64,000 nt of DNA from Candidatus Kapaibacterium sp. (GCA_018882895.1 VERF01000003.1:854-64853), one strand, 5' to 3'; shown: positions 2 through 64,000, counted from the first letter of the stretch. Numbers and translations: made by a program. The notes: generated from the sequence alone by a model not told the origin.

Positions 2-142
2 AAGATCCTGAATTCCGAACGATGGAATGAGTTTGACAGACTCATCATCAATCATGGTCGCAGGACCTGCATTGCACGGCGTCCGCAGTGTGACCGATGT
101 GCCATCGCTGACCTGTGTCCTTCGGCAGTGCAAAAGCCGTAA
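2..142 (+). CDS. nth: endonuclease III (Nth), C-terminal fragment truncated by window start
   Basis: Frame 2 reads ...NEFDRLIINHGRRTCIARRPQCDRCAIADLCPSAVQKP*. The C-x6-C-x2-C-x5-C spacing is the [4Fe-4S] loop of Nth/MutY C-termini. Stop TAA at 140-142. Confidence 0.7.
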   Translation, partial: KILNSERWNEFDRLIINHGRRTCIARRPQCDRCAIADLCPSAVQKP

Positions 143-206
143 CCATGTGTCACGTATTCATCGCAAGATTGCTCATGGAATTGGTAAACAGGAGAGAACA
201 CCAATA

Positions 207-2222: not shown

Positions 2223-2325
2223 CGTAACCTTTTTGATTTCGTCTTGTCTATCTTGCGCCGAGGTGCGCAGTAGCAGTATTGGCAGCCTCCGGCTTGTTGC
2301 ACATGCCCTTTCAAGGAGCGACTGA

Positions 2326-17009: not shown

Positions 17010-17085
17010 TGGAGCCAATGACCGGACTTGAACCGGTGACCTGCTCATTACGAATGAGCTGCTCTACCAGCTGAGCTACATTGGC
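17010..17085 (-). tRNA. tRNA-Thr (anticodon CGT), CCA encoded
   Basis: Hand-folded cloverleaf: GCCAATG/TA/GCTC-AGCTGGTA-GAGC/A/GCTCA-TTCGTAA-TGAGC/AGGTC/ACCGG-TTCAAGT-CCGGT/CATTGGC/T/CCA. 76 nt. Confidence 0.9.
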
Positions 17086-17096
17086 GCTGAGGACTG

Positions 17097-17104
17097 CGAA
17101 AATA
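17097..17104 (-). promoter_or_regulatory. possible -7 box (TATTTTCG) upstream of tRNA-Thr
   Basis: One mismatch to the Bacteroidota-type TAnnTTTG consensus, 11 nt upstream of the mature tRNA 5' end. Confidence 0.3.
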
Positions 17105-17155
17105 CACGGCTTGACGAAGATGACCAAACCCAGCCGATCGCGAATGTGACTCCGA

Positions 17156-20100: not shown

Positions 20101-20218
20101 ATTGACCGGCATTGAGAATCAAACCGGCCGAACGGACATTGTCCGCCCCTTGCGCGCTGATAACCACAACGGCAAAGCACGCGGCTGTTACGCACAGCCC
20201 CCAAATTTTCGAACGCAT
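17156..20218 (-). CDS. 1020-aa secreted protein: SBBP-type beta-propeller repeats + two Ig (I-set-like) domains + T9SS C-terminal domain
   Basis: Signal peptide MRSKIWGLCVTAACFAVVVISAQG. Repeats of the form GGSxxD...VDxxGxxYLxGxTxSxxFPT. Tandem Ig modules with YQW[RK]KDG...Y.C. A CTD-like tail ...GLVMIEVSSGFTRSVLPVIIRD. Confidence 0.75.
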   Translation of the reverse strand: MRSKIWGLCVTAACFAVVVISAQGADNVRSAGLILNAGQWPSHIIAATRTRGADVWVTTSGVICDEYTVRDGVRTGTVFSEHFAGAVMLDPDSPVGGTTVSYFSGGSRNSFSTAAFRDQPIRFRFPSGAIVNLSVGEDGRLVRSIQTGQEHLAESVHIVRSDRSGVNTMDATKAGSFVYGSYIGGGAFDAITAIEVMPSGNLLVSGTTAQMTVPTGVGGYSKSIKGDNDAFVLICDAKFQRILAMTFIGGSAGDRLRSMTIDGQQNVYLAIETTSNDMPTTPAAQFKTIKAATDAYVAKLDSTLTKLLTGFYHGGNRDDIPRDIAVDESGFIYLAGSTTSTANFPNNMTATANLVWQYQDGRDTKTRTVGISSGNSNLGQQDGFIAIYSATGTMQKSRYYGREGNDAFTSVAVDSRGFVVLTGTTTSTSFEAVPIADATWTGRLPYDRTYNGGTSDVFVVKMSSGLTFSQTDGITFATLFGGSADEETVAMWLDSDGKIFIGGNTRSNNLPTSASVFSQAPGRLDGFVAQVADNGTQVISCTYIGGSGDDLVRNVRPSGRTSAFLISGTTTSSDFPTEGFGATAERFGLTDGFYTMMNFGAVTVSTLLTGLESDTVVDAILDFRGDALLAANSTSANLRTHDSAYASYSGASDGYLTKYTPGSLEIVTPKGGEVYCIGSSKPLAWDASGVADTTKFRIEYSVEGSGKWADVIRSTGGRSYLWKIPPSVVAGSYVLRISTVNGHVSILTTPFMIDAPPSITRQPASTSVCQGAKLTLSVASSSVAAKYQWRKDGVNITGANTATFTADTASTGAAGKYDCVISGECPPAVTSQPATVTIQPRPTITTQPTPQTVDEGKPVTLTVVATGPALTYQWKRDGMTIVGASSASYTVPAASKADEGSYACEVSGQCGSITSQSVVVKVNAGTSVDDSEISGIGLRLLGPQPASDVVMIAADLPTSLDLNVRFLDARGSILSTKSLGMAPPGQQTFTLDVSTLPRGLVMIEVSSGFTRSVLPVIIRD

Positions 20219-51871: not shown

Positions 51872-53094
51872 TGTCTGATCGTTTTTCGCTTAATCTTCTT
51901 GGAAGTCCGGCAGTACACCGTCATCTGGTCACGATCCTGCTTTCTGTCCTCGTCGGCTCTATCCTGTTTCTGATCTTTGTTCCGTGGCAACAGTCGGTTG
52001 TTGGCAGCGGACGGGTCACATCATTCACCCCCCAGGCTCGCCCGCAAACCGTCGAAAGTGCCATCAGCGGTCGCATCACCAGATGGTTCGTTAAAGAAGG
52101 TGATCGAGTGAACAAGGGTGATACTATTCTCGTGATGGCCGACATCAACGTCAACTTCATGGACGTTGAGATCATCGATCGGCTTCGTATGCTCAGGGGG
52201 CGGACCTTTGCCGCTCAGGAGCAGGCAATTCAGGTGGCCATGCAAAGACGACGTCAGGCCGAACAGCGTTATGATGCGTCTCGTGCCCGCCTAGACAATG
52301 CCAAGATCGAGACCGAGACGGCACGCATTCGCTACAACCGAGCAGATACTTTGTTTCGCAGTGACCTGGTGGCCCGACGTGAACTCGAATCTGCCCAGCT
52401 CGGACTGCAAAAAGCCGTGGCTGATTCGGTAGCAGCGTTCACGGGTGTTATGGCGGCGCGGCAGGACATCGAGGCATTCTCAGCCGAGGAAGAGCGCGTC
52501 GTGAATCAGGCGTACTCGACCATGCACGAAATGGACATTCGCGTGTCGAACGCCGAGACCCGCCGCGGCGCTGGCGTGGTGCTTGCGCCGATCTCGGGCG
52601 TCATCGTACGAATTGAGAAGTTCGGCGAAGGCATGACGGTCAAGGAAGGTACGCCCCTTGCGCTGATCGTTCCGGCCGGAGATGACCGGGCAATTGAGCT
52701 CTACGTAGGAAGCATGGATGCGGCCTTGGTCGAACCGGGTCGCCTCGTTTCGTTGCAGTTCAGCGGCTTCCCTGCGTTCCAGTTTTCGGGTTGGCAAGCC
52801 CTGCAGGTTGGTGTTTTCCATGGACGCGTCAAAGTGGTTGATGCAACTGACGATGGGTCCGGTCGATTCCGAATCCTCGTCGTACCAGCTGAGGAATCCA
52901 AGTATGGACGCTGGCCGAGCAACCGTTACCTACGTCAGGGAACGGATGCTACTGGTTGGGTGCTCCTTGATGATGTGGCCGTTGGCTTCGAGCTCTGGCG
53001 TCAGCTGATGGGCTTCCCACCTCAGTATCCTGTGGCACCATCGAAGGCGGCCGGCAAGCCGGCCAAGAAGGACGGGAGTAAGGAGGAGAAGTGA
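51868..53094 (+). CDS. HlyD-family type-I-secretion membrane fusion protein
   Basis: N-terminal TM, ...VVGSGRVTSF...SAISGRITRWFVKEGDRVNKGDTILVMAD, and a long coiled coil. ATGA junction with the ABC gene. Confidence 0.85.
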   Translation: MMSDRFSLNLLGSPAVHRHLVTILLSVLVGSILFLIFVPWQQSVVGSGRVTSFTPQARPQTVESAISGRITRWFVKEGDRVNKGDTILVMADINVNFMDVEIIDRLRMLRGRTFAAQEQAIQVAMQRRRQAEQRYDASRARLDNAKIETETARIRYNRADTLFRSDLVARRELESAQLGLQKAVADSVAAFTGVMAARQDIEAFSAEEERVVNQAYSTMHEMDIRVSNAETRRGAGVVLAPISGVIVRIEKFGEGMTVKEGTPLALIVPAGDDRAIELYVGSMDAALVEPGRLVSLQFSGFPAFQFSGWQALQVGVFHGRVKVVDATDDGSGRFRILVVPAEESKYGRWPSNRYLRQGTDATGWVLLDDVAVGFELWRQLMGFPPQYPVAPSKAAGKPAKKDGSKEEK

Positions 53095-54470
53095 GAATGT
53101 CTCTTCGCATCCTGCTGATACTCGTGGTCGCTGCCCTCATTCAGCAGACCAGCCATGCACAACGCCGTGTGGGCCTGCGTGAGTTTCTCGACCTGGTCGA
53201 GCGGAATCACCCTACTATCAGGGCCGCGAACCTTGAGCCCGAGCTTGCCGATGCGGATGTGCGATCAGCTCTCGGGCGGTTCGATCCGTTCCTCGCCTTC
53301 AACTACGAATCAAAGGTCAAGTCAGGCAGCGACAAGCTTACCGTCCTCGAGGGGTCGATCGAGCAGCCCCTTGACATGCTGTTTGGTCCCAAGATCAAGG
53401 CCGGATTTCAGCGCGGCACGGGCTTTTCGATCAACCCGGAGGATCTAACGGCAACAGCCGGCGAGGCATCGCTTGGCGTGAGCGTGCCCCTTTTGCAAGG
53501 CATCTTCACGGATGCTCGGCGTAACAACCTTCGCAAGGCCGAACTTCGACCCGACCTGGCGCGTGCGCAACAGCGCATTGAACGCAATGCCCTGCTTCGC
53601 ACAGGTGCACTTCGTTTTCTGGATTGGAGTGAGGCAGCCGAACTTGTTGCAGTGGCTGACACACTACTGGAGCTGGCGCGGCGTAGGCAGAACTTCATCA
53701 TACGACGCTCGATTAGCGGTGAGTCGGCCCTTATTGACTCCACAGAAGCGGCTCAGGAGGTGCGTCGACGCGAGGGCGAGCGCCTTCGCACGCTTCGTAT
53801 GGCCGAGCAGTTCGCCGTCGATGTCAAGGGGCTCATCTTTGCCGATAACGGCATCCAGATTCCGGATCCTTTTGACGCCCCGACGGGGTTGACCGGACGT
53901 CCTGACTCGTCACGTACGACCGATAGGGCCATTGACGTTGCCTTTGCGGCGCGTCCGGAGCTGCGCCGCGTTGAACTAGCGCTGCAAACGGCCCGGCTTG
54001 ACTCGACTCTGGCACGCGAGTTCATGCGACCGAACCTTGAGCTTGATGCCGGCGTTGTGGCCTTCGATGCGGGACAACCATCGGCACTCGATTACAAGGT
54101 TGGTCTGCGCATGCAGCAGCCCCTTTTCTTCCGCCAGGCCTCGGCCGGTGTGCAGACAACTTCGGTGGCCGTCGACCGTGCAGAGTTTGCCGTTCAGTTG
54201 ATGCGCCGACTGGTAGAGATCGATGTCCGCAATACCATGATCGCCATCGAGCGTTCGCTGGAGCGTCTGACGATCGCCCAGGAGGAAGTCCGACTGGCTC
54301 TTATCATGGTCAACGCCGAACAGCAACGCTTTACGGCGGGCGACGCTTCGCTTCTGACCCTGAACCTCAGGGAACGATTCTACGGCGAAGCTCTGCAGCG
54401 ATTGGTCTCGGCAAAGGCCGACGTTGAGCGTGCCAATGTGAGTCTGCTCTGGGCGATGGGTATAATCTGA
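53091..54470 (+). CDS. TolC-family outer-membrane protein
   Basis: Signal peptide MRMSLRILLILVVAALIQQTSHAQ. Two OEP repeats. 4-nt overlap with the HlyD gene. Confidence 0.85.
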   Translation: MRMSLRILLILVVAALIQQTSHAQRRVGLREFLDLVERNHPTIRAANLEPELADADVRSALGRFDPFLAFNYESKVKSGSDKLTVLEGSIEQPLDMLFGPKIKAGFQRGTGFSINPEDLTATAGEASLGVSVPLLQGIFTDARRNNLRKAELRPDLARAQQRIERNALLRTGALRFLDWSEAAELVAVADTLLELARRRQNFIIRRSISGESALIDSTEAAQEVRRREGERLRTLRMAEQFAVDVKGLIFADNGIQIPDPFDAPTGLTGRPDSSRTTDRAIDVAFAARPELRRVELALQTARLDSTLAREFMRPNLELDAGVVAFDAGQPSALDYKVGLRMQQPLFFRQASAGVQTTSVAVDRAEFAVQLMRRLVEIDVRNTMIAIERSLERLTIAQEEVRLALIMVNAEQQRFTAGDASLLTLNLRERFYGEALQRLVSAKADVERANVSLLWAMGII

Positions 54471-54476
54471 TTGGCG

Positions 54477-54484
54477 TATCTTTG
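54477..54484 (+). promoter_or_regulatory. Bacteroidota-type -7 promoter box TATCTTTG upstream of etfB
   Basis: Exact TAnnTTTG match 49 nt before the etfB ATG. It is embedded in a 12-mer, CGTATCTTTGCA, that recurs upstream of tRNA-Met. Confidence 0.5.
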
Positions 54485-54532
54485 CAGCCCTTTGAACGGC
54501 AATTTCATCACGAATAACTCACAGTCACACAC

Positions 54533-55279
54533 ATGAACATACTCGTGTGCATCAGCCAGGTACCGGATACGACCACCAAGGTGGCCGTCGGTGCCGATGG
54601 CACATCGATCAACCCCGCAGGGGTCAAGTACATCCTGAATCCGTACGATGAGTTCGCGATCGAGGAAGGACTTCGTAAGCGCGAACAACACGGTGGAACA
54701 GTCACAGCCGTCAGCGTCGGACCGGACTCGGTCAAGGAAGTTCTCCGTACCGCACTTGCCATGGGCGTCGACACAGCCATCCACATCAAGGATGACCAGC
54801 GAGGTGACTCTTTCTGTGTTGCCAGCTCGATCGCCGATCTGGCCAAGGAGACCACTCCGGATCTGATCATTTTTGGTCGGCAGTCGATCGACTACGATTC
54901 ATTCGCACTTCCATCGATGACGGCTGAAATCCTCGGATGGGCAGATATTCCGATGGTATCAATGCTCTCGATCGACGGCTCTGCAATCACTGCCGAAAGT
55001 GACATCGAAGGCGGGAAGTATACCGTTTCGTGTGAGCTCCCCTGCGTTATCAGTGCTCAGAAGGGGCTGAACGATCCGCGGTATCCGAAGCTCCCTGACA
55101 TCATGAAGGCCAAGTCCAAGCCGATCGCTGAACGTGCATCAGGCGCTCAGTCGGCCCGTGTGGCAACTACCTCTATGACGTTGCCGGTGAGCAAGCGCTT
55201 GAACAAGGTGCTGGGCGACTCTGACGCCGACGTCATGGAACTGGTCCGTCTCCTCCACGAAGAAGCAAAGGTGATCTGA
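54533..55279 (+). CDS. etfB: electron transfer flavoprotein beta subunit
   Basis: MNILVCISQVPDTTTKV...NPYDEFAIEEGLR... Confidence 0.9.
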   Translation: MNILVCISQVPDTTTKVAVGADGTSINPAGVKYILNPYDEFAIEEGLRKREQHGGTVTAVSVGPDSVKEVLRTALAMGVDTAIHIKDDQRGDSFCVASSIADLAKETTPDLIIFGRQSIDYDSFALPSMTAEILGWADIPMVSMLSIDGSAITAESDIEGGKYTVSCELPCVISAQKGLNDPRYPKLPDIMKAKSKPIAERASGAQSARVATTSMTLPVSKRLNKVLGDSDADVMELVRLLHEEAKVI

Positions 55280-55281
55280 CA

Positions 55282-56250
55282 ATGAGCATACTCGTCGTAC
55301 TCGAAGCACAAGCCGGTGGTCTGAAGCGTACCTCATGCGAAGCCATCACAGCTGCCCTGTCCGTTGCCGGATCATCGGCCATCACGGGCGTCATCTTCAA
55401 CGGCGCGCAGGAGCAGTTCGCTGCCGCCGGTGCCTACGGCCTTTCCAAGGTGTTGAACATCAGCGGTGATGAGTGGACGTCGATCCCCTCTGCACGCATG
55501 GCAGCTGCCATCTCCGATGCAGCCGTCTCGATCGGCGCATCGTTGGTGGTGTTCGGTGCAAACTCGTTCGGAAAGAACGTGGCCCCGCGCGTATCTGTGC
55601 GGCTCAGTGCCGGTTTCCTGCCCGACTGTGTTGCCCTCAGCGGCACAGCCGGATCGGTGGAGGCAACACGTCCGGTCTATGCAGGTAAGGCACTCGTGAA
55701 TGTCACATCTACGACATCCACGACCGTAGCAACTCTGCGCCCGAATCTCTTTACTGCCAAGAACATCTCAGGGGGCGAAGCCGCTTCGGAATCTTTTGTG
55801 CCGACCTCGGCATCTTCTTTGCCGACGATGCGCGTTACCTCCGTAACCCGCAATGAGGGTCAGCTGGATGTCTCGGAGGCCGACATCATCGTTTCCGGTG
55901 GAAGAGGTCTGAAGGCGCCTGAGCATTTCAACCTGATCGAAGGTCTGGCAAAGAGTCTTGGTGCCGCTGTCGGCGCATCACGTGCTGTGGTCGACGCCGG
56001 TTGGCGTCCCCACCGCGAGCAGGTGGGACAGACCGGCAAGACCGTTAGTCCGACCATGTACGTTGCCTGCGGCATTAGCGGTGCAGTGCAGCATCTTGCC
56101 GGCATGTCGTCGAGCAAGATTATTGTCGCAATCAACAAAGACAAGGACGCCCCTATTTTCAGCGTTGCCGATTATGGCATCGTTGGAGACGTGTTTGAGG
56201 TCCTTCCGCGTTTGACCGGCGCCATCTCGGCGATCACGGGTAAGAATTGA
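55282..56250 (+). CDS. etfA: electron transfer flavoprotein alpha subunit
   Basis: C-terminal FAD-binding region ...GASRAVVDAGW...QVGQTGKTVSP.LYVACGISGAVQHLAGM... Confidence 0.9.
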   Translation: MSILVVLEAQAGGLKRTSCEAITAALSVAGSSAITGVIFNGAQEQFAAAGAYGLSKVLNISGDEWTSIPSARMAAAISDAAVSIGASLVVFGANSFGKNVAPRVSVRLSAGFLPDCVALSGTAGSVEATRPVYAGKALVNVTSTTSTTVATLRPNLFTAKNISGGEAASESFVPTSASSLPTMRVTSVTRNEGQLDVSEADIIVSGGRGLKAPEHFNLIEGLAKSLGAAVGASRAVVDAGWRPHREQVGQTGKTVSPTMYVACGISGAVQHLAGMSSSKIIVAINKDKDAPIFSVADYGIVGDVFEVLPRLTGAISAITGKN

Positions 56251-56263
56251 GGATAGCGTTCGG

Positions 56264-56863
56264 ATGAACAAGGTGCAGGTCGACATACTTGGTCTATCGG
56301 TCAACCCGAATTCTCAGCGGGCCTATGCCCTGCTGCTGCGTGAGGTGGACGGCCAGCGGCGACTCCCGATCGTCATCGGTGAGCCGGAAGCCCAAGCTAT
56401 CGCCAACCAGCTTGAAGGCGTCCGCCCGCAACGGCCGATGACGCATGATCTGCTCAAGAACGTCATAGACTCTCTTGGTGCGCAGGTACGCGAGGTCGTC
56501 ATCACGTCGATCAAGGACGGAACGTTCTACGCATCGATCTTCTTCGATTACTCGGACTTGGAGATCGACGCACGTCCGAGCGATGCGATCGCTCTGGCAG
56601 TGCGCTGTCAGGTGCCGATGTATGTTGATGAAGCGATCATGGACGAGGCGTCGATCCATGCCGATGAAATACGCGAGCTCGAAGAAGGAAGTTCTGACGA
56701 GGAAGCGCCGGTAGAGCAATTGCCGGCAACTGCACCATCAGCAGAGCCCCTTACCTTGCGACAGAGGCTAGAACAGGAACTTGATCAGGCCATCAAGGTC
56801 GAGGACTATGAAGCGGCCGCTCGAATCCGAGACGAGATCAGTCGCTTGCAGAATCCAACATAG
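56264..56863 (+). CDS. bifunctional nuclease (DUF151) with C-terminal UVR motif
   Basis: ...RRLPIVIGEPEAQAIA...RPMTHDLL...DARPSDAIALAVR... plus EDYEAAARIRDEISRLQ. Confidence 0.75.
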   Translation: MNKVQVDILGLSVNPNSQRAYALLLREVDGQRRLPIVIGEPEAQAIANQLEGVRPQRPMTHDLLKNVIDSLGAQVREVVITSIKDGTFYASIFFDYSDLEIDARPSDAIALAVRCQVPMYVDEAIMDEASIHADEIRELEEGSSDEEAPVEQLPATAPSAEPLTLRQRLEQELDQAIKVEDYEAAARIRDEISRLQNPT

Positions 56864-56865
56864 GT

Positions 56866-56894
56866 TTTGAATCTGACGGACGTTCGTATCTTTG
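56866..56894 (+). promoter_or_regulatory. tRNA promoter: TTTG (-33-like) N17 TATCTTTG (-7 box)
   Basis: TTTG at 56866-56869 and TATCTTTG at 56887-56894. The box ends 15 nt before the tRNA 5' end. Confidence 0.5.
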
Positions 56895-56909
56895 CATCCC
56901 CTCTTAAGG

Positions 56910-56983
56910 GCCGGAGTAGCTCAGGTGGTTAGAGCAACGGAATCATAATCCGTGTGTCGGGGGTTCAAGTCCCTCCTCCGGTA
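56910..56983 (+). tRNA. tRNA with anticodon CAT (elongator Met or lysidine-modified Ile2; not initiator-like)
   Basis: GCCGGAG/TA/GCTC-AGGTGGTTA-GAGC/A/ACGGA-ATCATAA-TCCGT/GTGTC/GGGGG-TTCAAGT-CCCTC/CTCCGGT/A. G1-U72 wobble. No GGG/CCC anticodon stem. CCA not encoded. Confidence 0.85.
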
Positions 56984-56990
56984 CTTTCAA

Positions 56991-57018
56991 CAGCGAAGCC
57001 CAATGCTTCGCTGTTTTT
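56991..57018 (+). terminator. rho-independent terminator after the tRNA
   Basis: CAGCGAAGC-CCAAT-GCTTCGCTG followed by TTTTT. Confidence 0.75.
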
Positions 57019-57197
57019 GTTTGTACAGCCGTCAAGCCTTCTCGAAAGCCGCCAGCGCAGAAGGCGCGCCACACCCAATTTCTATTTTCTTCCCCGTTGC
57101 ACCCACCTGGCGGTAACCTGGCGTGATCGCACAGGTCTTAGTCTTACATTACGGCGTAACTACTGTGTATTTCCACTCATTACTAGAGTTCACAGCC

Positions 57198-57371
57198 ATG
57201 AAGATTATTCCAACACTCGTTGTCGCTCTTGCAGGATTTCTTCTGAGTTCTCAGTCAGCCTTGTCACAATGTGTTAGTCCACCGAATCAGTGTGGCAATC
57301 AGACGCCAATTCAGTGTGAATGCGTTGGTACGGAATACGAGTTTAAGGTCTGCCATGCTGGGCGTTCATAG
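57198..57371 (+). CDS. 57-aa secreted Cys-rich peptide (cassette A, part 1)
   Basis: Signal peptide MKIIPTLVVALAGFLLSSQSALSQ, then CVSPPNQCGNQTPIQCECVGTEYEFKVCHAGRS*. It aligns by eye to the N-terminal part of the cassette-B protein (63418 minus strand). Confidence 0.5.
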   Translation: MKIIPTLVVALAGFLLSSQSALSQCVSPPNQCGNQTPIQCECVGTEYEFKVCHAGRS

Positions 57372-57382
57372 CGAACGTCTGG

Positions 57383-57775
57383 ATGTGCACTCAACAGGCA
57401 GTGCCGCCAACGCCTCTGGACAATCCCTGTACTGTTCCTCCCAACGAATGCGCATTCCCGATAAACTCAATCACGTGGGTGAAAAAAATCTGCGTTCCTC
57501 AGGAGCTGAAGGATCAGAATCTGACGGCAGTCTATCAGGCCATCATCCGAGGCACTGACTTATGCTGTTACAACTTCATTGGCGCGACAATTCCTGCCTG
57601 CAATGCTGGGGCACGATGCTCCGATCCTACAAACCCAGGTATTTACTGTCACGTGTTAGCGCTACCAAAGTGTCTATCAAAGAACTTTAGTACAGGATGT
57701 TACACTGCGTGTGACAACGGTGGAAACTGTGCAAATCACTGCATTCTTGGAGGTGGAAAATGCTACTCAACGTGA
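57383..57775 (+). CDS. 130-aa Cys-rich protein without its own signal peptide (cassette A, part 2)
   Basis: 19 Cys in 130 aa. CTQQAVPPTPLDNPC...WVKKIC...CYTACDNGGNC. In the -1 frame relative to 57198-57371. No recognisable family. Confidence 0.5.
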   Translation: MCTQQAVPPTPLDNPCTVPPNECAFPINSITWVKKICVPQELKDQNLTAVYQAIIRGTDLCCYNFIGATIPACNAGARCSDPTNPGIYCHVLALPKCLSKNFSTGCYTACDNGGNCANHCILGGGKCYST

Positions 57776-60207
57776 AGTACTATATCACTTGCCTTTTGGC
57801 GTGCGTTTACTTCCTAAACGCCGACCACGTCTGTGCTCAGGGCCGTGAACCGGACCTTTGGTGGAGCGGTATAGCGCCGAGGACGGTGTTTCATCATCCT
57901 TTATGGGGATATGTTGCACTCTTCGAATTCAATGGCCTCTATAGCGGTCAATCGCTGTCCGATATGAAGCCGGTACTCCCGGAAGCAAACTGGGATCGAA
58001 TCAAGGCTTTGCCGAACATGGCCATTCTTAGCAGTGGCGTTTGGGTGGTAGCCGGAGGAACACCTCCACGGGAGACACCGGGCAGTATTTTTCGCTTCAC
58101 ACCGGGAAAGACACCCGAACTCCTCACCGGTGCCGACCTGGATTCATCAATTATACTTGGGGGCGGCATCGACTATGGCGTGATTTGTCGGTCCTTTGAG
58201 CCAGATGGTTTTGTCCTCAGTCGCCTGTATTCGACGAATAGTGGTGCCAGCTGGCACTACGGCCAGTGGCCAGACTCGGTGGAATCAGGATCGTGGGGCT
58301 TTGTCAATCGCCTGCCTGATCTTGGATTCGTAGCCTTATACGAGCGAGATACGTCCTGGCATCGATTGGAGTTGCCTTCGAAACGATGGCTGAAAACAAA
58401 CCAGATTCCAGGGTCCTGCAGGGAGCTCACCCCGTTACGGAATGGCTCTGTCGTAGCAGTTATGGAGACGAGTCGTGACGTCTACACTGGAGTCGCGGTA
58501 CGACCAAGTGGCTCTCAAGAGTGGTCCTTTCATCGGGATGTGCGCATACGCAACATGAAGGATTCCCTGCGTCCGATCTGGCGTTTAAGACAGGAACGAG
58601 AGCCAGTTTTTCACGTGATCAATGACTCACTCGCAGCTATGGCAATGGACAGCGGGATCATCGTTTTTTCTGATGGTCGGGATGTGTGGTCAGTGAAAAT
58701 GGATATCCCGAAACAACTGCGATATGTTGGCAAGGTTAGGACATCTGTCAGTGTTGTAGGCGAAACGATCTACATGAGTTACACCGATGGCATGAGCCCT
58801 TCACACGTGACCTATCACGTTACGTCGGGCAAGACGAAGATTCTTTCACGACTCCCACCGATGCAAATGGCCAACAACATGATCATTGGCTATCACTCGA
58901 ACAGCCTGCGCATCTATGAACCTGAGGAAGATCTACTGCGTCCAATTCTCAGAGCGCGCGGTGCCGGAGACGAACCGATTTTCCCATTTTCATTTTCGTC
59001 TCTCGTGCCTCACGATGGGGCGATATACACACACAATCAAAACGGGGAGGTTTTGTCTGTTAACATCCGAGATAGGACCGCACAGTTTGCACCGTGGCTT
59101 CCTACGGAATTTCCGTCAACGTCCCGGGCGCAGCATGAGATTGGCACCCAACCATGTGTGTCGACTCCTGCCGGGCTCATGCTGATCGGAAGACGTGGAC
59201 TTCGCCGCTTGAATGGTCGGGTAGCAACGAACCTACGACCCGATAGCACTTCCTTTGTCTATGCTACCGACGATAAGACATTACTCAGCGGATACAGGAG
59301 CCTGTTCATGTCGGTCGACTCCGGCGGAACGTGGAGTAGTGTACCCGGTCCGTTCGACAGCGCGAGTGTAAAGCCAGCGATCTCGTCATGTATTGTCAAC
59401 GGGCAGGCGATGATCGTTGCCTACCGTGGCTATGACGTGGAAAGTGATGGCGTTCCAGACGGTTTCGTCCCGGGTGGACTGTTTCGGTCTGTCAATGGAG
59501 GGTCTACTTGGGAGTCATTGCCGCTGCCTGTGCCGGCGCGCTGGGTCGAGTCACTCCATAGAACCGAGTCCGGAGAATTGTGGTGCTGGGCCATCGATCA
59601 ATATCTCGAGTGGTCGGGAACGAGTTCGAAGTTTCGCTACAATACCGGTTCTCTTCTTCGCTCGACTGATGACGGCAAGTCGTGGCAGGTTGTGCACTCA
59701 GAGGTTGGTTCTCAGACACTCAGAGATCTAGCCCCGTGGAATATCAGCTCACGTAGCGGGCAGGTCCTTGTCAATACGGACGCGCAGTTGTTGCTGACGG
59801 CTGATGGTGGCCGCACATGGAAGACGTTTGACGATATTCCTCTCGGCATGCCAGTCAACGGATCGCTGATCGATGATGCCGGACAGATATGGGCTGCGAC
59901 GAGCAAGGGAATCTATATTCTCAACGCAACGACAAGTGTCAATACTGAGTTGCTGAACAGTGCTTCGTCGATGGATCCATACGTTTGGCCAAACCCATCA
60001 GATGGCTCATTCACGATAAAGTGGTCTGGTTATCAGCAGGGCAGCGTTCCAGCGGTGATCGACGTTGTCGACAACCTTGGCCGGAGCATCACATATTCCA
60101 GCAGTCAAAACAGCATCGCGCTGCCTAATGCGTCTGCTGGTGTGTATTACCTGCGGTGGCGCGCAGGCTCCTCTGCCGGAGCGATTCCAGTGATGGTTCG
60201 CAAGTAG
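57760..60207 (+). CDS. Asp-box (BNR) beta-propeller protein with T9SS C-terminal domain (cassette A)
   Basis: GGAGGT 6 nt before the ATG. Signal peptide ...CLLACVYFLNADHVCAQ. Asp-boxes STNSGASW, SVDSGGTW, SVNGGSTW, STDDGKSW and TADGGRTW. CTD VWPNPSDGSFTI...GVYYLRW... Confidence 0.8.
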   Translation: MLLNVKYYITCLLACVYFLNADHVCAQGREPDLWWSGIAPRTVFHHPLWGYVALFEFNGLYSGQSLSDMKPVLPEANWDRIKALPNMAILSSGVWVVAGGTPPRETPGSIFRFTPGKTPELLTGADLDSSIILGGGIDYGVICRSFEPDGFVLSRLYSTNSGASWHYGQWPDSVESGSWGFVNRLPDLGFVALYERDTSWHRLELPSKRWLKTNQIPGSCRELTPLRNGSVVAVMETSRDVYTGVAVRPSGSQEWSFHRDVRIRNMKDSLRPIWRLRQEREPVFHVINDSLAAMAMDSGIIVFSDGRDVWSVKMDIPKQLRYVGKVRTSVSVVGETIYMSYTDGMSPSHVTYHVTSGKTKILSRLPPMQMANNMIIGYHSNSLRIYEPEEDLLRPILRARGAGDEPIFPFSFSSLVPHDGAIYTHNQNGEVLSVNIRDRTAQFAPWLPTEFPSTSRAQHEIGTQPCVSTPAGLMLIGRRGLRRLNGRVATNLRPDSTSFVYATDDKTLLSGYRSLFMSVDSGGTWSSVPGPFDSASVKPAISSCIVNGQAMIVAYRGYDVESDGVPDGFVPGGLFRSVNGGSTWESLPLPVPARWVESLHRTESGELWCWAIDQYLEWSGTSSKFRYNTGSLLRSTDDGKSWQVVHSEVGSQTLRDLAPWNISSRSGQVLVNTDAQLLLTADGGRTWKTFDDIPLGMPVNGSLIDDAGQIWAATSKGIYILNATTSVNTELLNSASSMDPYVWPNPSDGSFTIKWSGYQQGSVPAVIDVVDNLGRSITYSSSQNSIALPNASAGVYYLRWRAGSSAGAIPVMVRK

Positions 60208-60208
60208 C

Positions 60209-60340
60209 ATCAGGATGACTCAGCATCACCTCAGCTCGTTCACCGCCCGCTCTTCGGCTGGTATGCGGATTCTTGTCAGGATGAGATAGTTGAGTGCCGT
60301 GGCGATGATGGCTGTGAGGTATGCTCCGACAGAAAGGTGG
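60209..60340. repeat. direct repeat copy 1 (132 bp; 127/132 identical to 63560-63691)
   Basis: Manual alignment at a constant offset of 3351 nt. Mismatches at 60250, 60285, 60332, 60337 and 60338. Weaker similarity continues to about 60355. Confidence 0.9.
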
Positions 60341-60342
60341 AA
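60226..60342 (-). pseudogene. remnant of the last 38 codons of the ICMT-family methyltransferase gene
   Basis: In-frame reading FHLSVGAYLTAIIATALNYLILTRIRIPAEERAVNELR*, versus the intact ...FVGAYLTAIIATALNYFILTRIRIPAEDRAVNELR* at 63577. An upstream in-frame TGA at 60343-60345 closes the frame. Confidence 0.8.
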
Positions 60343-60383
60343 TCACGAAACAGTGTTGCTCGGGTTGATGCAGACGTTCCATC

Positions 60384-62981
60384 TCACCTCTGCACCATTA
60401 CCTTACACCACTCACTACCACCTGCATGTGACATGGCTATAAAATAGATGCCGGGTACGAGGTGTTCGACGGAAACATGCAGCTCCTGACGCGCTGGTGT
60501 TTGGGTGATCGAACTTGACAGATCAGATATCTGCTGACCATAGATGTTTAGAAGGGTTAGTTTCGGCTTACTCTTTGCGAGATGCGCATTGTTGATGCGA
60601 ATGGTGATCTGTCCATTTGCTGGAGTCGGGTAGGCCCACACCGATGTAAAAATGCCCTGGTCTTTTTCATCATCAACCGAGCTTGTAGTTGAGGTAAACG
60701 TATAGAGTCCTCTTTCCGTGGCCGCGTAGATCGTGCCGTTCTTGTCTGTATCAATGTCCTGTATGAAGTGGAAGTACAGTGGGGTTTCACCGAGGGTGTG
60801 CCACGTCAGCCCTGCATCGGTGCTCTCAAGCACGCCATCGTCGATGCTTGCGTACAGAACTCGTGTCTCTGACGTCGCGAGCAGTTCGCGGCGTCCCCAA
60901 AATGCTGGTCTTGATCGGGGCTCTTCATACACCATTGTCCAAGTCTGTCCTGCATCGGACGAACGCATGATAGTCGCACCTGTCTGGTTGTAACGATCCG
61001 TTTCATTATTGCCTGTATTGTTGGTATCGGCAAGAACCTGGCCCACCGCACAAAGCACAGTACTCTCGTCGAGCTTTGTGATGTACCAGATATACGACTG
61101 CCTTCCCATACCAACATCGCTTCGGGTCCAAGTATCACCATTATCGTCCGAGCGGTACAAACCTCCTGGACGCAGTATGGTCGTATCGGTGTCATCATCA
61201 CGATACAAGCCGCGGAAGCCTAGCAGCAGCGTGGAGGGCGACAAGCGCAAGATCTGCGATGTCTCCAATATCCTACCCTTGGAGTCGCGCGGCAGGCCCA
61301 CAGACTTAGCTGACGTCCACGTGTCTGCTCTATTCGAACTGAAATACACGCTGTCGGATACAGCAATCCACTCAGATGCGCTTGAGATTGAAAACGCTGA
61401 TGCCCTCACCGAACCAGCCCCAATGGGTTTTCGAATTTTTGTGTTAGGACCTTCTACGCTGATATGAGTTGAGTGAATGTATGTCGTGTCACCTATCAGT
61501 TGAATGGCAGGCCCCCCACGATCCACATGTTGTGGGTAGATGACGTTGAATTCATAGAACTGCGGGAAACCAAAAACGTGTCGCTGATACGTAGCTACTT
61601 CGGAATGATTCAAGCGAAAGAGAGACTGATGATCGCCCGAGATGATATGCGCTCCGGCATCGCCGGCCGATACCCGCTCTACACTCATAAAATGTGTGCC
61701 GAGTAATTTGAACTTCGATACCTCGAACAGGTCGGATGGTGCCGAAGGTAGTTGCCAGCTCTTACCGTTGTCTAAACTTCGATACAGACCTTTCGGTCCT
61801 AACCCAATGATAGTCAAGGAGTCCAACCGAATAACGGAACTCAGCGATGGCGCCAATGTGGTTAGTGTATCAATCGAACCTATATCGGTTGGAAGTTTGC
61901 ACACCAATCCGTCGTTAGCAATGAGTATATTGCCAGCACGATCCGTGTGGAAGGCTTCCCCCGCTGCGACATCGTTTAACAAACCTACATTACCTCGGTA
62001 ATACCAGTCAGCACCTCCGTTCGGCGTGGAAACAACGTCACCCGTGGACATAGCTACCGTGATGATGTCCGATTGCTGGCGCATCAGAAGTCCATTAAGC
62101 TCTTGGAATCTTCCTCGTAGAACCTTGCTAGAATTCACAAACACAAGACTATCAATCTCAACCCACGACGCTCCCTTATCTGTAGAGCGTGCAAGTACGC
62201 CGAACTTTAGTCCATTTGGCTGCTTTCTCTCAACCGAAGCGACAATTGTAGCTGAGTCGAAACAGCGATATGCAATGTGCCTGCCTGGCAGTGTAACGAC
62301 GTGAATACTTGACGTGATGGCGTCGTACTCGATAAAAACGCTATCACATGCTACAGAGAACACGCCCTTCCTTATCTCGAACAACGGTTCTGACAGATTC
62401 AAACCAAAAGATACAGGGGGAATCACAGTAGAATCCCAATCTCTTCCAAAGTTCTTTGAAGAATACAGATCTCTAAAGGTTGCGCGGAGTCCCACCAGGA
62501 CAACCATGGAATCAGACACTCCTACCCTCGGAGAAAGAGGGAGAACATTTTCAGATCCCAACGGCTTAAGCTCCCGCCAATTGTCGTCATTACGGTCATA
62601 CGCGAATATCCGATACTCGAAATTGGCGGTCTTGTCTTCGAAATGAAAGAGAACGTTGCAACCATTAGCAATAAGTTGCGTCCTTGGCCTATGATCTTGA
62701 AGGTTTTGCACGGGCATGTGGTGCCATGTGCCACCAGAATCCGTGCTACGCCATATACGTTCACCTGAAACTGCCCACAATTCCTTTGTGCACGTGTCAA
62801 TGACAATGCGGCGGGGCATACCTGAAACTCTTGAGGTATTGACGTAGGAGTACCAAGCCCGAAAGTCACGTTTCCATTCCTGAGCACGAAGGGGCGCCCC
62901 CTGCGTACACAACGCAACCAGCAATAGTATGGAGGCGCGTACTGTTAGAGTAAATCTACAGGAGACATGTGTGTTCATCAT
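60384..62981 (-). CDS. Asp-box (BNR) beta-propeller protein with T9SS C-terminal domain (cassette B)
   Basis: ATG-ATG at 62981/62978 gives MMNTHVSCRFTLTVRASILLLVALCTQGAPLRAQ (the ORF-track start 63014 is TTG). About 9 Asp-boxes (STDSGGTW, STDKGASW, SLDNGKSW, SDDNGDTW, SSDAGQTW, STDAGLTW...). CTD YPTPANGQITI...GIYFIAM... Confidence 0.8.
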   Translation of the reverse strand: MMNTHVSCRFTLTVRASILLLVALCTQGAPLRAQEWKRDFRAWYSYVNTSRVSGMPRRIVIDTCTKELWAVSGERIWRSTDSGGTWHHMPVQNLQDHRPRTQLIANGCNVLFHFEDKTANFEYRIFAYDRNDDNWRELKPLGSENVLPLSPRVGVSDSMVVLVGLRATFRDLYSSKNFGRDWDSTVIPPVSFGLNLSEPLFEIRKGVFSVACDSVFIEYDAITSSIHVVTLPGRHIAYRCFDSATIVASVERKQPNGLKFGVLARSTDKGASWVEIDSLVFVNSSKVLRGRFQELNGLLMRQQSDIITVAMSTGDVVSTPNGGADWYYRGNVGLLNDVAAGEAFHTDRAGNILIANDGLVCKLPTDIGSIDTLTTLAPSLSSVIRLDSLTIIGLGPKGLYRSLDNGKSWQLPSAPSDLFEVSKFKLLGTHFMSVERVSAGDAGAHIISGDHQSLFRLNHSEVATYQRHVFGFPQFYEFNVIYPQHVDRGGPAIQLIGDTTYIHSTHISVEGPNTKIRKPIGAGSVRASAFSISSASEWIAVSDSVYFSSNRADTWTSAKSVGLPRDSKGRILETSQILRLSPSTLLLGFRGLYRDDDTDTTILRPGGLYRSDDNGDTWTRSDVGMGRQSYIWYITKLDESTVLCAVGQVLADTNNTGNNETDRYNQTGATIMRSSDAGQTWTMVYEEPRSRPAFWGRRELLATSETRVLYASIDDGVLESTDAGLTWHTLGETPLYFHFIQDIDTDKNGTIYAATERGLYTFTSTTSSVDDEKDQGIFTSVWAYPTPANGQITIRINNAHLAKSKPKLTLLNIYGQQISDLSSSITQTPARQELHVSVEHLVPGIYFIAMSHAGGSEWCKVMVQR

Positions 62982-63418
62982 AAACTCTCTCGTTGGTGAC
63001 AACCGGACAGGCAAACAGTAACTCGCCTGCTCATTTCATGTACATCAAGGACAGACTTCACAGTCCGCATTGGGATCGAAAACACATCCATTGTCGGTAC
63101 ACTGGGACTCACACGTGCTGTAGGTGGCAGCGTTGTCCCAGATGGACATATCTTCTTTATCACGGTGTACTTATCTATCCCAGTATTTGTAGCACATGGT
63201 AACCCCAACTGCGGGGGGCTATATGTTTTGGTACAGTAGGTAACGTCAACATTGTAAGTAACTCCCATACTACAGAATGTTACGTTGATCGTTGCCTCTG
63301 CGCTACCACCCGGGCAGTCGGTACAGCCAGGTGTCTCGTTGGCAGATGCTCTCGTTGTCGCCCAAAGCAACATCAATAAACACAACCCTAATGCAAGCCG
63401 CGAAAAACAGTATCTCAT
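62978..63418 (-). CDS. secreted Cys-rich protein (cassette B), probably frameshifted near 63120-63150
   Basis: ATG at 63418: MRYCFSRLALGLCLLMLLWATTRASA, then NETPGCTDCPGG...FCSMGVTYNVDVTYCTKTYSPPQLGLPC...VIKKICPSG. After this point the -1 frame (to the stop at 63045) is the one that is Cys-rich and resembles the cassette-A tail. Confidence 0.5.
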   Translation of the reverse strand: MRYCFSRLALGLCLLMLLWATTRASANETPGCTDCPGGSAEATINVTFCSMGVTYNVDVTYCTKTYSPPQLGLPCATNTGIDKYTVIKKICPSGTTLPPTARVSPSVPTMDVFSIPMRTVKSVLDVHEMSRRVTVCLSGCHQRESL

Positions 63419-63490
63419 GATGTATCTGTCTGAATAATGAGGAAAAAAGTCACCGTGGAATATGGGGATTGATTCGTTATCGAACAATAT

Positions 63491-63524
63491 GAAAACTCCG
63501 GTCATTTTGCCCTTCGTACCGGAG
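63491..63524 (-). terminator. weak terminator-like hairpin downstream of the methyltransferase gene
   Basis: Minus strand: CTCCGGT-(15-nt loop)-ACCGGAG then TTTTC. Short stem and large loop. Confidence 0.3.
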
Positions 63525-63559
63525 CATGTTGACCCCCAATCGTCATTGGTCCTTCACAG

Positions 63560-63691
63560 ATCAGGATGACTCAGCATCACCTCAGCTCGTTCACCGCCCG
63601 GTCTTCGGCTGGTATGCGGATTCTTGTCAGGATGAAATAGTTGAGTGCCGTGGCGATGATGGCTGTGAGGTATGCTCCGACAAAAAGAGGG
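63560..63691. repeat. direct repeat copy 2 (3' end of the intact methyltransferase gene plus 17 nt downstream)
   Basis: See copy 1. Covers the stop codon at 63577-63579 and the last ~38 codons. Confidence 0.9.
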
Positions 63692-64000
63692 ATGACGAAG
63701 AACTCAACGAGCACGACAATGTAGTTCGGGTGCGAAACGTACCTGAAGGGTCCTGCCGTGACTCTTTCTGCGCCGGGCACCACGATAATGCGCGTGTTCC
63801 ACGCAGGACCCAGTGTGGAGATCGTCCAGTACCGCATGACCTGGGCTAAAGAGATCACCCCGACAAAGAACCACCACGGCTGCTGTATCTCGCCGCCGCG
63901 CAGGATGTGTTCGGTGATCCAGCCGATGAACCACGACACGTGCAATGCAACGATCAAAGGGTAGTGGCCGGCCCCGTACTCGCGACCGCCGCGAGCAAAG
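63577..64000 (-). CDS. isoprenylcysteine carboxyl methyltransferase (ICMT)-family membrane protein, 5' end beyond window
   Basis: ...GPFRYVSHPNYIVVLVEFFVIPL... is the ICMT/PEMT-type motif. The frame stays open to nt 64000 (…FARGGREYGAGHYPLIVALHV), and the ORF-track start 63957 is only an internal TTG. Confidence 0.75.
   Translation of the reverse strand, partial: FARGGREYGAGHYPLIVALHVSWFIGWITEHILRGGEIQQPWWFFVGVISLAQVMRYWTISTLGPAWNTRIIVVPGAERVTAGPFRYVSHPNYIVVLVEFFVIPLFVGAYLTAIIATALNYFILTRIRIPAEDRAVNELR

What the first reader, a model, noticed from the sequence alone, without database searches (positions are those of the whole stretch)
56910..63691. tRNA-flanked islet with two inverted copies of a two-gene cassette: Cys-rich secreted protein followed by an Asp-box beta-propeller T9SS cargo
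A tRNA(CAT) plus terminator lies on the left and the ICMT-family gene on the right. Between them are two convergent cassettes with the same internal order.

- Cassette A (+): Cys-rich ORFs 57198-57775, then an 815-aa propeller at 57760-60207.
- Cassette B (-): Cys-rich ORF from 63418, then an 865-aa propeller at 62981-60384.

In A the propeller gene starts 16 nt inside the Cys-rich gene, behind a strong GGAGGT, which suggests translational coupling.

The Cys-rich proteins share by-eye motifs: C.xG..Y....V..C; C-T-x4-PP-x-L-x2-PC; [VI]KKIC; C-x3-C-(T)DNG..C. I do not recognise the family.

Hand counts of single 60-nt lines give 23/60 GC at 62101 and at 62401, and 30/60 at 61501. A uvrA line (47101) gives 35/60. 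Cassette B therefore looks compositionally foreign.

Conserved pairing in two diverged copies argues for a functional two-component surface module, such as a disulfide-rich partner, adaptor or inhibitor for a T9SS-displayed propeller.
Basis: partly seen in the sequence, partly recalled or inferred. Interest (0 to 1): 0.7.

Follow-up and report, generated by a model that had tools for sequence, protein, structure and literature searches.

The report
Broken partner genes beside secreted propellers
This stretch of a freshwater Kapabacteria/Ignavibacteria genome holds two copies of a rare, undescribed gene pair: a small disulfide-rich secreted protein always followed by a large surface-secreted propeller protein, and in this genome both small genes have been knocked out by deletions while both propeller genes are intact.

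Summary
The sequence features are real and the coordinates and hand counts are right. The main correction is that both Cys-rich genes in this window are pseudogenes. CysA (57198-57775) has a 4-nt frameshift and a 129-nt deletion. CysB (63418-63045) has a 265-nt frameshifting deletion. Close relatives carry intact genes of 236 aa and about 215 aa.

The Cys-rich proteins form a rare family: 70 representatives among 1.84 billion, found only in Ignavibacteria/Kapabacteria-type MAGs. It has no Pfam, NCBIfam, PDB or BFVD match, although the AlphaFold model is confident (pLDDT 87.5).

In all 14 non-orthologous cassettes examined, the Cys-rich gene is followed on the same strand by a 780-880 aa Asp-box propeller with a T9SS type-A C-terminal domain. 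In five loci the start sits behind GGAGG with the same 16-nt overlap. Where intact, CysA is under strong purifying selection (dN/dS 0.08).

Cassette B has low GC, is absent from a syntenic relative, and is flanked by 133-nt direct repeats of the ICMT 3' end. Synonymous divergence from another species is 0.03-0.16 across most of the islet and 0.7-2.1 in the flank, which indicates recent exchange.

My best reading, not tested, is a co-produced two-subunit T9SS cargo complex whose small subunit is repeatedly lost.

The parts
56910..56984 (+). tRNA-Met (anticodon CAT), conserved left neighbour of cassette A in three species
   Evidence: ARAGORN. Rfam tRNA 64 bits. The same tRNA lies upstream of the cassette in L001 and L012.
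56989..57015 (+). Terminator-like hairpin after the tRNA
   Evidence: 11-bp stem, 6 GC pairs, T-rich tail. This is a consensus match only.
57198..57775 (+). CysA pseudogene. Signal peptide plus 31 mature residues are in one frame (57198-57371). The rest is in another frame (57383-57775). The gene has a 4-nt deletion at about 57362 and a 129-nt (43-aa) deletion at 57738/57739 that removes the conserved ERRYC hairpin.
   Evidence: Three-frame translation. 92% identity to the intact 236-aa protein P0001. Indel list against L001. CTGC microhomology at the junction. Profile coverage 1-52 and 54-176 of 224 positions.
57749..57775 (+). GGAGGT Shine-Dalgarno sequence and propeller A ATG (57760), embedded in the last codons of CysA, giving a 16-nt overlap
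   Evidence: Sequence. The same arrangement is present in L001, L012, L007 and L009.
57760..60207 (+). Propeller A: 815 aa. It has a Sec signal peptide (VCA|QG), 5 Asp-boxes and a T9SS type-A C-terminal domain. The gene is intact.
   Evidence: Pfam and NCBIfam. Asp-box count. dN/dS against L001 is 0.25. No excess of nonsynonymous change on the window branch. Residues 69-815 are 100% identical to NCBI MBU3698604.1 from a Candidatus Kapabacteria MAG.
60209..60341 (+). Direct repeat copy 1: a displaced, non-coding copy of the last 116 nt of the ICMT gene plus 17 nt downstream. It starts 2 nt after the propeller A stop codon.
   Evidence: the repeat finder D1: 133 nt, 96% identity, spacing 3351. 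Alignment with L001 and L012. BLAST.
60384..62981 (-). Propeller B: 865 aa. It has a signal peptide (LRA|QE), 9 Asp-boxes and a T9SS type-A C-terminal domain. The gene is intact. GC 0.499, GC3 0.514.
   Evidence: Pfam and NCBIfam. Composition. 95% aa identity to L006, dS 0.054.
63045..63418 (-). CysB pseudogene. The signal peptide and N-terminal domain are in frame from 63418. A 265-nt frameshifting deletion at 63117/63118 removes about 88 aa. The original C-terminal 23 codons and stop codon (63047-63045) are now out of frame.
   Evidence: Three-frame translation. Intact orthologue in L001 and L006. Indel list. CTG microhomology at the junction. Profile coverage 5-102 only.
63560..63692 (+). 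Direct repeat copy 2: the functional 3' end of the ICMT gene
63577..64000 (-). ICMT-family methyltransferase gene, cut by the window end. It is the right-hand neighbour of the islet. In L012 it directly faces propeller A.
   Evidence: Pfam ICMT E 3e-26. L012 gene order.

Best explanation
The islet holds two paralogous copies of a self-contained two-gene module found in Ignavibacteria/Kapabacteria-type bacteria. Gene 1 encodes a Sec-exported protein of about 210 residues with 21-29 cysteines. It has no T9SS sorting domain and no lipobox. Gene 2 is translated from a start embedded in, or just after, the end of gene 1. It encodes an Asp-box beta-propeller protein of about 800-880 aa with a T9SS type-A C-terminal sorting domain.

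Most likely mechanism (inferred): the two proteins are made together, fold and form disulfides in the periplasm, and assemble into a complex. The small Cys-rich subunit caps or buttresses the propeller. The T9SS, which carries folded cargo, then takes the complex to the cell surface using the propeller's C-terminal domain. The likely role is ligand or glycan binding, or adhesion.

In this particular genome both small-subunit genes have been inactivated by microhomology-flanked deletions, while both propeller genes remain intact. The window therefore shows a natural double knock-out of the small subunit.

Cassette B is a later insertion between propeller A and the ICMT gene. Its structure, 133-nt direct repeats of the ICMT 3' end, is what single-crossover (Campbell-type) integration of a circular DNA would give. 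Most of the islet has recently been exchanged between species by recombination.
For: Shown:
- A family of 70 representatives (47 with E <= 1e-10) exists among 1.84 billion proteins. They are about 200-240 aa with 16 invariant columns, mostly Cys.
- 14 of 14 non-orthologous cassettes have the propeller immediately downstream on the same strand, in unrelated contexts.
- GGAGG plus the 16-nt overlap is conserved in five loci.
- Intact CysA has dN/dS 0.077 between L001 and L012.
- Cys-Cys and cognate propeller-propeller identities co-vary (Spearman 0.88). The Cys protein is always the more conserved of the two.
- Signal peptides are present on both proteins. The conserved mature N-terminal Gln fits the Q-rule value of 77% reported for Ignavibacterium album (PMC5837995).
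- Only the propeller has the T9SS C-terminal domain.
- The T9SS moves folded proteins (PMC9251779).
- The window's disruptions are listed. The other large ORFs of the window are long and uninterrupted, so the indels are not general assembly noise.
- All 25 sequence variants in the CysA and CysB 90% clusters have lengths consistent with intact genes.
- Cassette B: absent from L012, direct repeats, low GC.
- dS between window and L001 is 0.03-0.16 for propeller A codons 1-560, 0.03-0.05 for most of propeller B, and 0.14 for ICMT. It is 0.67-2.1 for six left-flank genes.

Inferred only: complex formation, co-export, and surface function.
Against: - No interaction was tested.
- T9SS export of a partner that lacks the C-terminal domain is not something I found described.
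- Propeller A shows no sign of decay after loss of its partner: 33 N / 42 S on the window branch against 85 N / 150 S on the L012 branch. The propeller therefore either works without the small subunit, or the loss is very recent.
- The cysteine parity lead for an interchain disulfide holds for A-type pairs but not for B-type propellers, which have 6, 7, 7 and 8 Cys.
- The window is a MAG contig. Chimeric assembly, or a minority deletion haplotype, cannot be excluded without the reads.
Confidence: 0.45

Rival explanations
1. The Cys-rich protein is a periplasmic inhibitor, immunity protein or dedicated folding factor. It keeps the propeller, taken to be an enzyme or toxin, inactive or folding-competent until T9SS export, and it stays behind in the periplasm.
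For: The Cys-rich protein has a signal peptide but no T9SS C-terminal domain or lipobox. Linkage to the propeller is strict and the two are co-translated. The propeller blades resemble those of GH74 glycosidases and sialidases.
Against: Both partner genes are dead in this genome, yet both propellers stay intact with dN/dS below 1 and no acceleration. A further case, L025, has an IS3 element truncating the Cys gene beside an intact propeller. The partner gene lies upstream and is more conserved than the propeller, which is unlike typical immunity genes. No toxin, defence or catalytic family match was found.
Confidence: 0.2
2. The Cys-rich protein is itself the active secreted product, for example a disulfide-knotted toxin, signal or adhesin. 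The propeller is its carrier, processing factor or receptor. Because the small protein is costly or is targeted by phages or grazers, it is lost repeatedly.
For: The Cys protein is the more constrained partner: dN/dS 0.077 and 43-63% identity where the cognate propellers share 19-41%. Its gene is disrupted in 4 of about 17 cassette instances seen (window A, window B, L008, L025). The propeller, four times longer, is disrupted in 1. The predicted fold is confident and has no match.
Against: No similarity to any toxin, bacteriocin or adhesin family was found. The sample of disruptions is small and some may be metagenome assembly variants.
Confidence: 0.2
3. Nothing functional is here: the islet is a decaying remnant of horizontally acquired DNA, and the gene adjacency reflects only common descent.
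For: Both Cys genes are pseudogenes in the window. In L008 both genes are broken. Propeller dN/dS of 0.25-0.48 is higher than the 0.04-0.09 of flanking genes. IS3/rve genes abut four cassettes.
Against: The pair persists across cassettes that have diverged to 19-25% identity and sit in unrelated contexts. In relatives dN/dS is 0.08 for CysA and 0.11-0.19 for propeller A. Both window propellers are uninterrupted ORFs of 815 and 865 codons.
Confidence: 0.1

Closest known systems
T9SS type-A C-terminal-domain cargo proteins with beta-propellers (for example PorZ, PDB 5m11, and many 'T9SS type A sorting domain-containing proteins')
   Same: An N-terminal Sec signal peptide, beta-propeller body and C-terminal domain of about 75 aa. 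The C-terminal domain matches PF18962 and TIGR04183 above their cut-offs and solved T9SS C-terminal domains 8glk, 8glj and 8qb1. NCBI names close relatives exactly this way.
   Different: Here the cargo gene is always preceded by, and often overlaps, a dedicated Cys-rich partner gene. I found no description of such a partner. Similarity to PorZ is limited to the C-terminal domain (27.6 bits against a cut-off of 260).
GH74 xyloglucanases and other Asp-box (BNR) propeller glycosidases
   Same: Asp-box S-x-D-x-G-x-x-W blades are present. The best PDB sequence matches are GH74 enzymes (6mgl, 6p2n, 2cn2; E 1e-10 to 1e-9).
   Different: The matches cover only about 70-aa single-blade stretches in the C-terminal third. 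The N-terminal ~530 residues match nothing. No catalytic residues could be aligned. This is not a demonstrated GH74 member.
Sortilin/Vps10 domain (Asp-box propeller packed against the Cys-rich 10CC module). More generally, eukaryotic propellers buttressed by small disulfide-rich modules such as sema-PSI and YWTD-EGF (from my own knowledge).
   Same: An Asp-box propeller combined with a disulfide-rich module. There are partial Pfam Sortilin-Vps10 matches (A 31.4 bits, B 37.5 bits, cut-off 33).
   Different: Here the Cys-rich part is a separate polypeptide of about 210 aa with 21-29 Cys. It has no detectable similarity to 10CC or any other Pfam or PDB entry. The resemblance is conceptual only.
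tRNA-associated genomic islands and integrative elements
   Same: The islet is next to a tRNA gene. It has lower GC, flanking direct repeats, presence/absence between relatives, and recent inter-species sharing.
   Different: There is no integrase or recombinase. The repeats derive from the ICMT 3' end, not the tRNA. Cassette A is at the same site in three species. The inserted unit is only 3.2 kb with two genes.

Membership tests
T9SS type-A CTD cargo (PF18962 / TIGR04183) | C-terminal sorting domain scoring above the curated cut-offs | tested here: met
   PF18962: A 32.4 bits and B 37.1 bits, cut-off 27. TIGR04183: 26.4 and 26 bits, cut-off 23. 8 of 10 family propellers match PF18962.
T9SS type-A CTD cargo (PF18962 / TIGR04183) | N-terminal Sec signal peptide | tested here: met
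   By inspection, each has a hydrophobic h-region followed by VCA|QG (A) or LRA|QE (B). No signal-peptide predictor was available.
T9SS type-A CTD cargo (PF18962 / TIGR04183) | Host encodes the T9SS machinery, and the protein is secreted through it | not testable with these tools
   No T9SS core gene was seen among the window ORFs scanned. Only literature hints exist for Ignavibacteriae (PMC5837995).
GH74 glycoside hydrolase | Full-length two-propeller homology with conserved catalytic Asp residues | tested here: not met
   Only local blade matches of about 70 aa. A single-sequence PDB search found nothing. NCBIfam gave only a partial hit to the F510_1955 glycosylhydrolase model, 36.8 and 61.4 bits against a cut-off of 175.
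Sortilin/Vps10 domain | Ten-bladed propeller profile match above cut-off, plus a 10CC module | tested here: not met
   A scores 31.4 bits, below the cut-off of 33. B scores 37.5 bits, but its best stretch covers only profile positions 44-141 of 446. No Sortilin_C/10CC match was found in either the propeller or the Cys-rich protein.
Cys-rich partner family (unnamed; alignment A2) | Full-length match to the 224-position profile, including the conserved ERRYC hairpin and the C-terminal Cys cluster | tested here: not met
   Window CysA matches positions 1-52 and 54-176 in two different frames. Window CysB matches 5-102 only. Both are homologous but truncated, that is, pseudogenes. Orthologues in L001 and L012 match in full.
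Cys-rich partner family (unnamed; alignment A2) | Immediately followed on the same strand by a propeller gene of about 800-880 aa with a T9SS C-terminal domain | tested here: met
   Both window cassettes and 14 of 14 non-orthologous cassettes elsewhere.
Integrative genomic island | Integrase or recombinase gene | tested here: not met
   All ORFs of at least 40 aa in 56.9-64.0 kb were listed. The long ORFs scanned against Pfam are the Cys remnants, the propellers and ICMT. Shorter ORFs were not scanned.
Integrative genomic island | Flanking direct repeats, deviant composition, and presence/absence among relatives | tested here: met
   This holds for cassette B only: 133-nt repeats at 96% identity, GC 0.497 against 0.547 +/- 0.012, and absence from L012.
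Toxin-immunity or anti-phage defence system | Match to a known toxin, immunity or defence family | tested here: not met
   PADLOC, PHROGs, Pfam and NCBIfam gave no such match.

The most novel reading that the evidence does not exclude
The Cys-rich proteins are a new-fold, disulfide-rich subunit class with no secretion signal for the outer membrane. They would reach the cell surface by riding on a dedicated T9SS propeller partner, possibly linked by an interchain disulfide. That would make them the first hetero-oligomeric 'hitch-hiking' T9SS cargo. Their recurrent knock-out (twice in this window, and also in L008 and L025) would reflect selection against an exposed target, for example a phage or grazer receptor.
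Probability: 0.2. Interest if true: 0.75.

Novelty: new variant of a known kind. Interest (0 to 1): 0.5.

Why it matters
T9SS cargo is generally treated as single polypeptides recognised through their own C-terminal domain. A strictly conserved, translationally coupled partner without that domain would raise the question of whether the T9SS can export pre-assembled complexes. It would also provide a compact two-gene system to test this.

The partner family is also a confident AlphaFold model with no structural neighbour in the PDB or BFVD, so it is a candidate new disulfide-rich fold.

This window adds a natural experiment. Both partners are deleted and both propellers are retained. This argues against an essential inhibitor role, and the relatives with intact genes offer matched controls.

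The caveat is that the module is confined to a small, uncultured clade and its function is unknown.

Tried and rejected
- **Propeller A structure.** The alignment had 5 sequences and the model gave pLDDT 37.6. It was unusable, so I ran no fold search on it.
- **Locating the window's own contig.** Three exact-protein look-ups failed. The source was identified only indirectly, through an identical NCBI protein in a cluster listing.
- **Genome-contig scan.** The narrower A3 gave 7 loci.
- **Metagenome-contig scan.** It added only 2 new loci.
- **Other database searches.** Rfam on the islet found only the tRNA. PADLOC and PHROGs found nothing.
- **L009 upstream pair.** A 185-aa Cys-rich ORF sits upstream of a second 804-aa T9SS protein. 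hhalign against the family gave probability 0.6%, so I did not count it as a member.
- **P0049.** This 1482-aa protein with 15 matched stretches is an Ig-like repeat protein and a spurious hit.
- **Lipoprotein reading of the conserved 'QC'.** Rejected, because residue -1 is Gln, not Gly/Ala/Ser. The site fits signal peptidase I cleavage before Gln.
- **Haem-binding reading.** Rejected, because I saw no CxxCH motif on reading the sequences.
- **Odd cysteine count as evidence for an interchain disulfide.** It holds for most Cys-rich proteins and all A-type propellers, but fails for B-type propellers. I kept it only as a lead.
- **Literature searches.** Searches for T9SS piggyback or hitch-hiking cargo, and for Ignavibacteria or Kapabacteria cysteine-rich proteins, found nothing relevant.

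Full report
**1. What is in the sequence**

- tRNA-Met(CAT) lies at 56910-56984, followed by a terminator-like hairpin at 56989-57015.
- Propeller A is 57760-60207 (+), 815 aa. Propeller B is 60384-62981 (-), 865 aa. The two genes converge.
- An ICMT-family gene lies on the minus strand from 63577 to beyond the window end.
- Both large proteins have a signal peptide, Asp-box motifs (5 in A, 9 in B), partial BNR/Sortilin-Vps10 matches, and a T9SS type-A C-terminal domain above the curated cut-offs.
- The propeller A ATG lies 16 nt inside the upstream ORF, 5 nt behind GGAGGT.
- The hand GC counts are exact.

**2. The key correction: both Cys-rich genes are broken**

Three-frame translation shows the following.
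- CysA is split between two frames, 57198-57371 and 57383-57775.
- In CysB (from 63418), the C-terminal C-x3-C-TDNG motif is out of frame with the N-terminal part.

Homologues show what is missing. The best hit, P0001 (92% identity), is an intact 236-aa protein. Its contigs (L001-L006) are syntenic with the window and also carry an intact CysB of about 215 aa.

Base-by-base comparison with L001 shows that the window lacks:
- 4 nt at 57362, which causes a frameshift;
- 129 nt at 57739, which removes 43 aa including the most conserved ERRYC hairpin;
- 265 nt at 63118, which removes about 88 aa and shifts the frame.

The two large deletions are bounded by CTGC and CTG microhomology. The two propeller genes, about 5 kb together, differ from L001 only by one 3-nt indel. 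The other large ORFs of the window are long and uninterrupted, so this is not general indel noise. All 25 sequence variants in the two 90% clusters have lengths consistent with intact genes.

The window is a MAG contig. Propeller A residues 69-815 are 100% identical to NCBI MBU3698604.1, 'Candidatus Kapabacteria bacterium'. A minority haplotype or an assembly effect therefore cannot be excluded without the reads.

**3. The Cys-rich family**

- A profile search of 1.84 billion representative proteins found 70 members with E <= 1e-3, of which 47 have E <= 1e-10. One, P0049, is spurious.
- The word-index search found 24 clusters among 5.8 billion.
- The species-representative genome set gave 7 loci, all Ignavibacteria or unclassified MAGs.
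- Members are about 200-240 aa. They have a signal peptide, usually a mature N-terminal Gln, and 19-29 cysteines.
- There are two subfamilies. The A-like subfamily includes window CysA. The B-like subfamily includes CysB.
- Sixteen alignment columns are invariant, mostly Cys.
- The mature N-terminal Gln fits the high Q-rule value reported for Ignavibacterium album (PMC5837995).
- No Pfam, NCBIfam, PADLOC or PHROGs family matches.
- The AlphaFold2 model of P0001, built from 22 sequences, is confident (pLDDT 87.5, pTM 0.83).
- Foldseek nevertheless finds nothing in the PDB (best E 0.29, TM <= 0.16) or in BFVD. A PDB sequence-profile search finds nothing either.
- Between L001 and L012 the intact gene has dN/dS 0.077. 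It is therefore a real, constrained protein in relatives.

**4. The pairing**

I scanned all fetched loci with profiles of both families and read the gene calls. Every Cys-family gene with downstream sequence available is followed on the same strand by a 780-880 aa propeller homologue.
- This makes 14 non-orthologous cassettes, including members as distant as E 5e-13.
- The neighbours differ between loci: RecO, EF-G, Fic, TonB receptors, IS elements and others.
- The two genes therefore form a self-contained unit.
- GGAGG plus a 16-nt overlap is conserved in the window, L001, L012, L007 and L009.
- Identities of Cys proteins and of their cognate propellers co-vary (Spearman 0.88). The Cys protein is always the more conserved of the two, for example 63% against 41% and 43% against 19%.

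**5. What the propellers are**

- The best PDB sequence matches are GH74 xyloglucanases, but only over single blades of about 70 aa. The C-terminal domain matches solved T9SS C-terminal domains.
- The N-terminal ~530 residues match nothing.
- The structure prediction failed (pLDDT 37.6).
- I class them as Asp-box propeller T9SS cargo. They are not demonstrated GH74, sortilin or PorZ members.

**6. History of the islet**

- L012, a third species, is about 78% identical in the flank and about 82% in cassette A. It has tRNA-Met, an intact CysA and propeller A, and then the ICMT gene directly. Cassette B is absent.
- In the window and in L001, cassette B is bracketed by 133-nt direct repeats at 60209-60341 and 63560-63692 (96% identity).
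- The right copy is the working 3' end of ICMT. The left copy is a displaced duplicate that starts 2 nt after the propeller A stop codon.
- This is the structure expected after single-crossover integration of a circular DNA carrying that 133-nt homology. No integrase is present.
- Cassette B has GC 0.497. Other 3-kb windows give 0.547 +/- 0.012, with a minimum of 0.530. Cassette A, at 0.527, deviates only marginally.
- Synonymous divergence between the window and L001 is 0.67-2.1 for six left-flank genes.
- Within the islet it is 0.03-0.16 for propeller A codons 1-560, about 1.0 for codons 561-700, 0.03-0.05 for most of propeller B, and 0.14 for ICMT.
- Most of the islet has therefore been exchanged recently between otherwise well-separated species, in at least two recombination tracts.
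- The L001 arrangement is seen in several independent assemblies. Chimerism of the window contig remains a formal alternative.

**7. Recurrent loss of the small gene**

- The Cys gene is disrupted in window A, window B, L008 (frameshift) and L025.
- In L025 an IS3 element replaces the 5' end and signal peptide of the Cys gene, and the propeller is intact.
- A propeller gene is disrupted only in L008, although propeller genes are four times longer.
- A branch test on propeller A, with L012 as outgroup, shows no excess of nonsynonymous change in the window lineage: 33 N / 42 S, against 16 / 25 on the L001 branch and 85 / 150 on the L012 branch.

**8. Interpretation**

- Strict linkage, translational coupling, co-divergence, Sec signals on both proteins and a T9SS C-terminal domain on only one best fit a co-produced two-subunit complex exported by the T9SS. 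The T9SS carries folded proteins (PMC9251779). Complex formation and co-export are inferences.
- An obligatory inhibitor, immunity or chaperone role fits poorly with intact, constrained propellers next to dead partner genes.
- A role for the small protein as the active or exposed component, lost under selection, remains open.
- Mature Cys-rich proteins mostly have odd cysteine counts (29, 27 or 21), and A-type propellers also have odd counts (3, 5 or 7). This hints at an interchain disulfide. B-type propellers are mixed, so this is only a lead.

**9. Verdict**

- The module is an undescribed variant of T9SS cargo organisation with an apparently new-fold partner.
- It is confined to a small uncultured clade and its function is unknown.
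- Interest is moderate.

Noticed in passing
window 60209-60341 and 63560-63692: 133-nt direct repeats (96% identical) bracket cassette B. The right copy is the 3' end of the ICMT gene and the left copy is a displaced pseudo-copy. The same repeats occur in L001. This is the structure expected from Campbell-type integration without an integrase.
   Followed up: partly
window 50141-64000 compared with L001: Synonymous divergence changes sharply. dS is 0.67-2.1 in six left-flank housekeeping genes and 0.03-0.16 across most of the islet and ICMT. An old-divergence patch (dS about 1.0) covers propeller A codons 561-700. This indicates a mosaic of recent inter-species recombination, or a chimeric MAG contig.
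   Followed up: partly
L025 1462-3142; also L008 6795-7640, L011 6770-7384, L022 4092-4526: IS3/rve transposase genes abut four cassettes. In L025 the IS element replaces the 5' end and signal peptide of the Cys-rich gene while the propeller stays intact.
   Followed up: partly
L009 4857-7832: Directly upstream of the L009 cassette lies a second pair: a 185-aa Cys-rich ORF followed by an 804-aa secreted protein. The small ORF is not detectably related to the family (hhalign probability 0.6%). It may be a more distant version of the same organisation.
   Followed up: partly
window 57760-57963: The NCBI protein for propeller A (MBU3698604.1, 747 aa) starts at Met69 and so lacks the signal peptide. 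The overlapping ATG at 57760 behind GGAGGT, which is conserved in relatives, is the likelier start.
   Followed up: yes
L001 16606-16626, aligning to window about 63408: L001-type contigs carry a 21-nt tandem duplication (RYTMRYC twice) at the CysB start region. The window has a single copy.
   Followed up: no
L015 749-1737: Another cassette of the family sits directly downstream of a tRNA gene (tRNA-Asn), echoing the tRNA-Met position in the window.
   Followed up: no
Cys-rich family and propellers (P0001-P0090; loci L001-L025): Mature Cys-rich proteins mostly have an odd number of cysteines (29, 27 or 21), by my hand count in roughly 54 of 64 sequences. All nine A-type propellers are odd as well (3, 5 or 7). 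B-type propellers are mixed (6, 7, 7, 8).
   Followed up: partly
window 27-8669 and 17010-20218: A 1447-aa WD40/VWA/Ig-like protein is flanked by two large proteins with C-terminal OmpA domains. A 1020-aa SBBP-propeller/Ig protein lies next to tRNA-Thr (17010-17085). These are further large envelope or surface proteins, which I did not examine.
   Followed up: no
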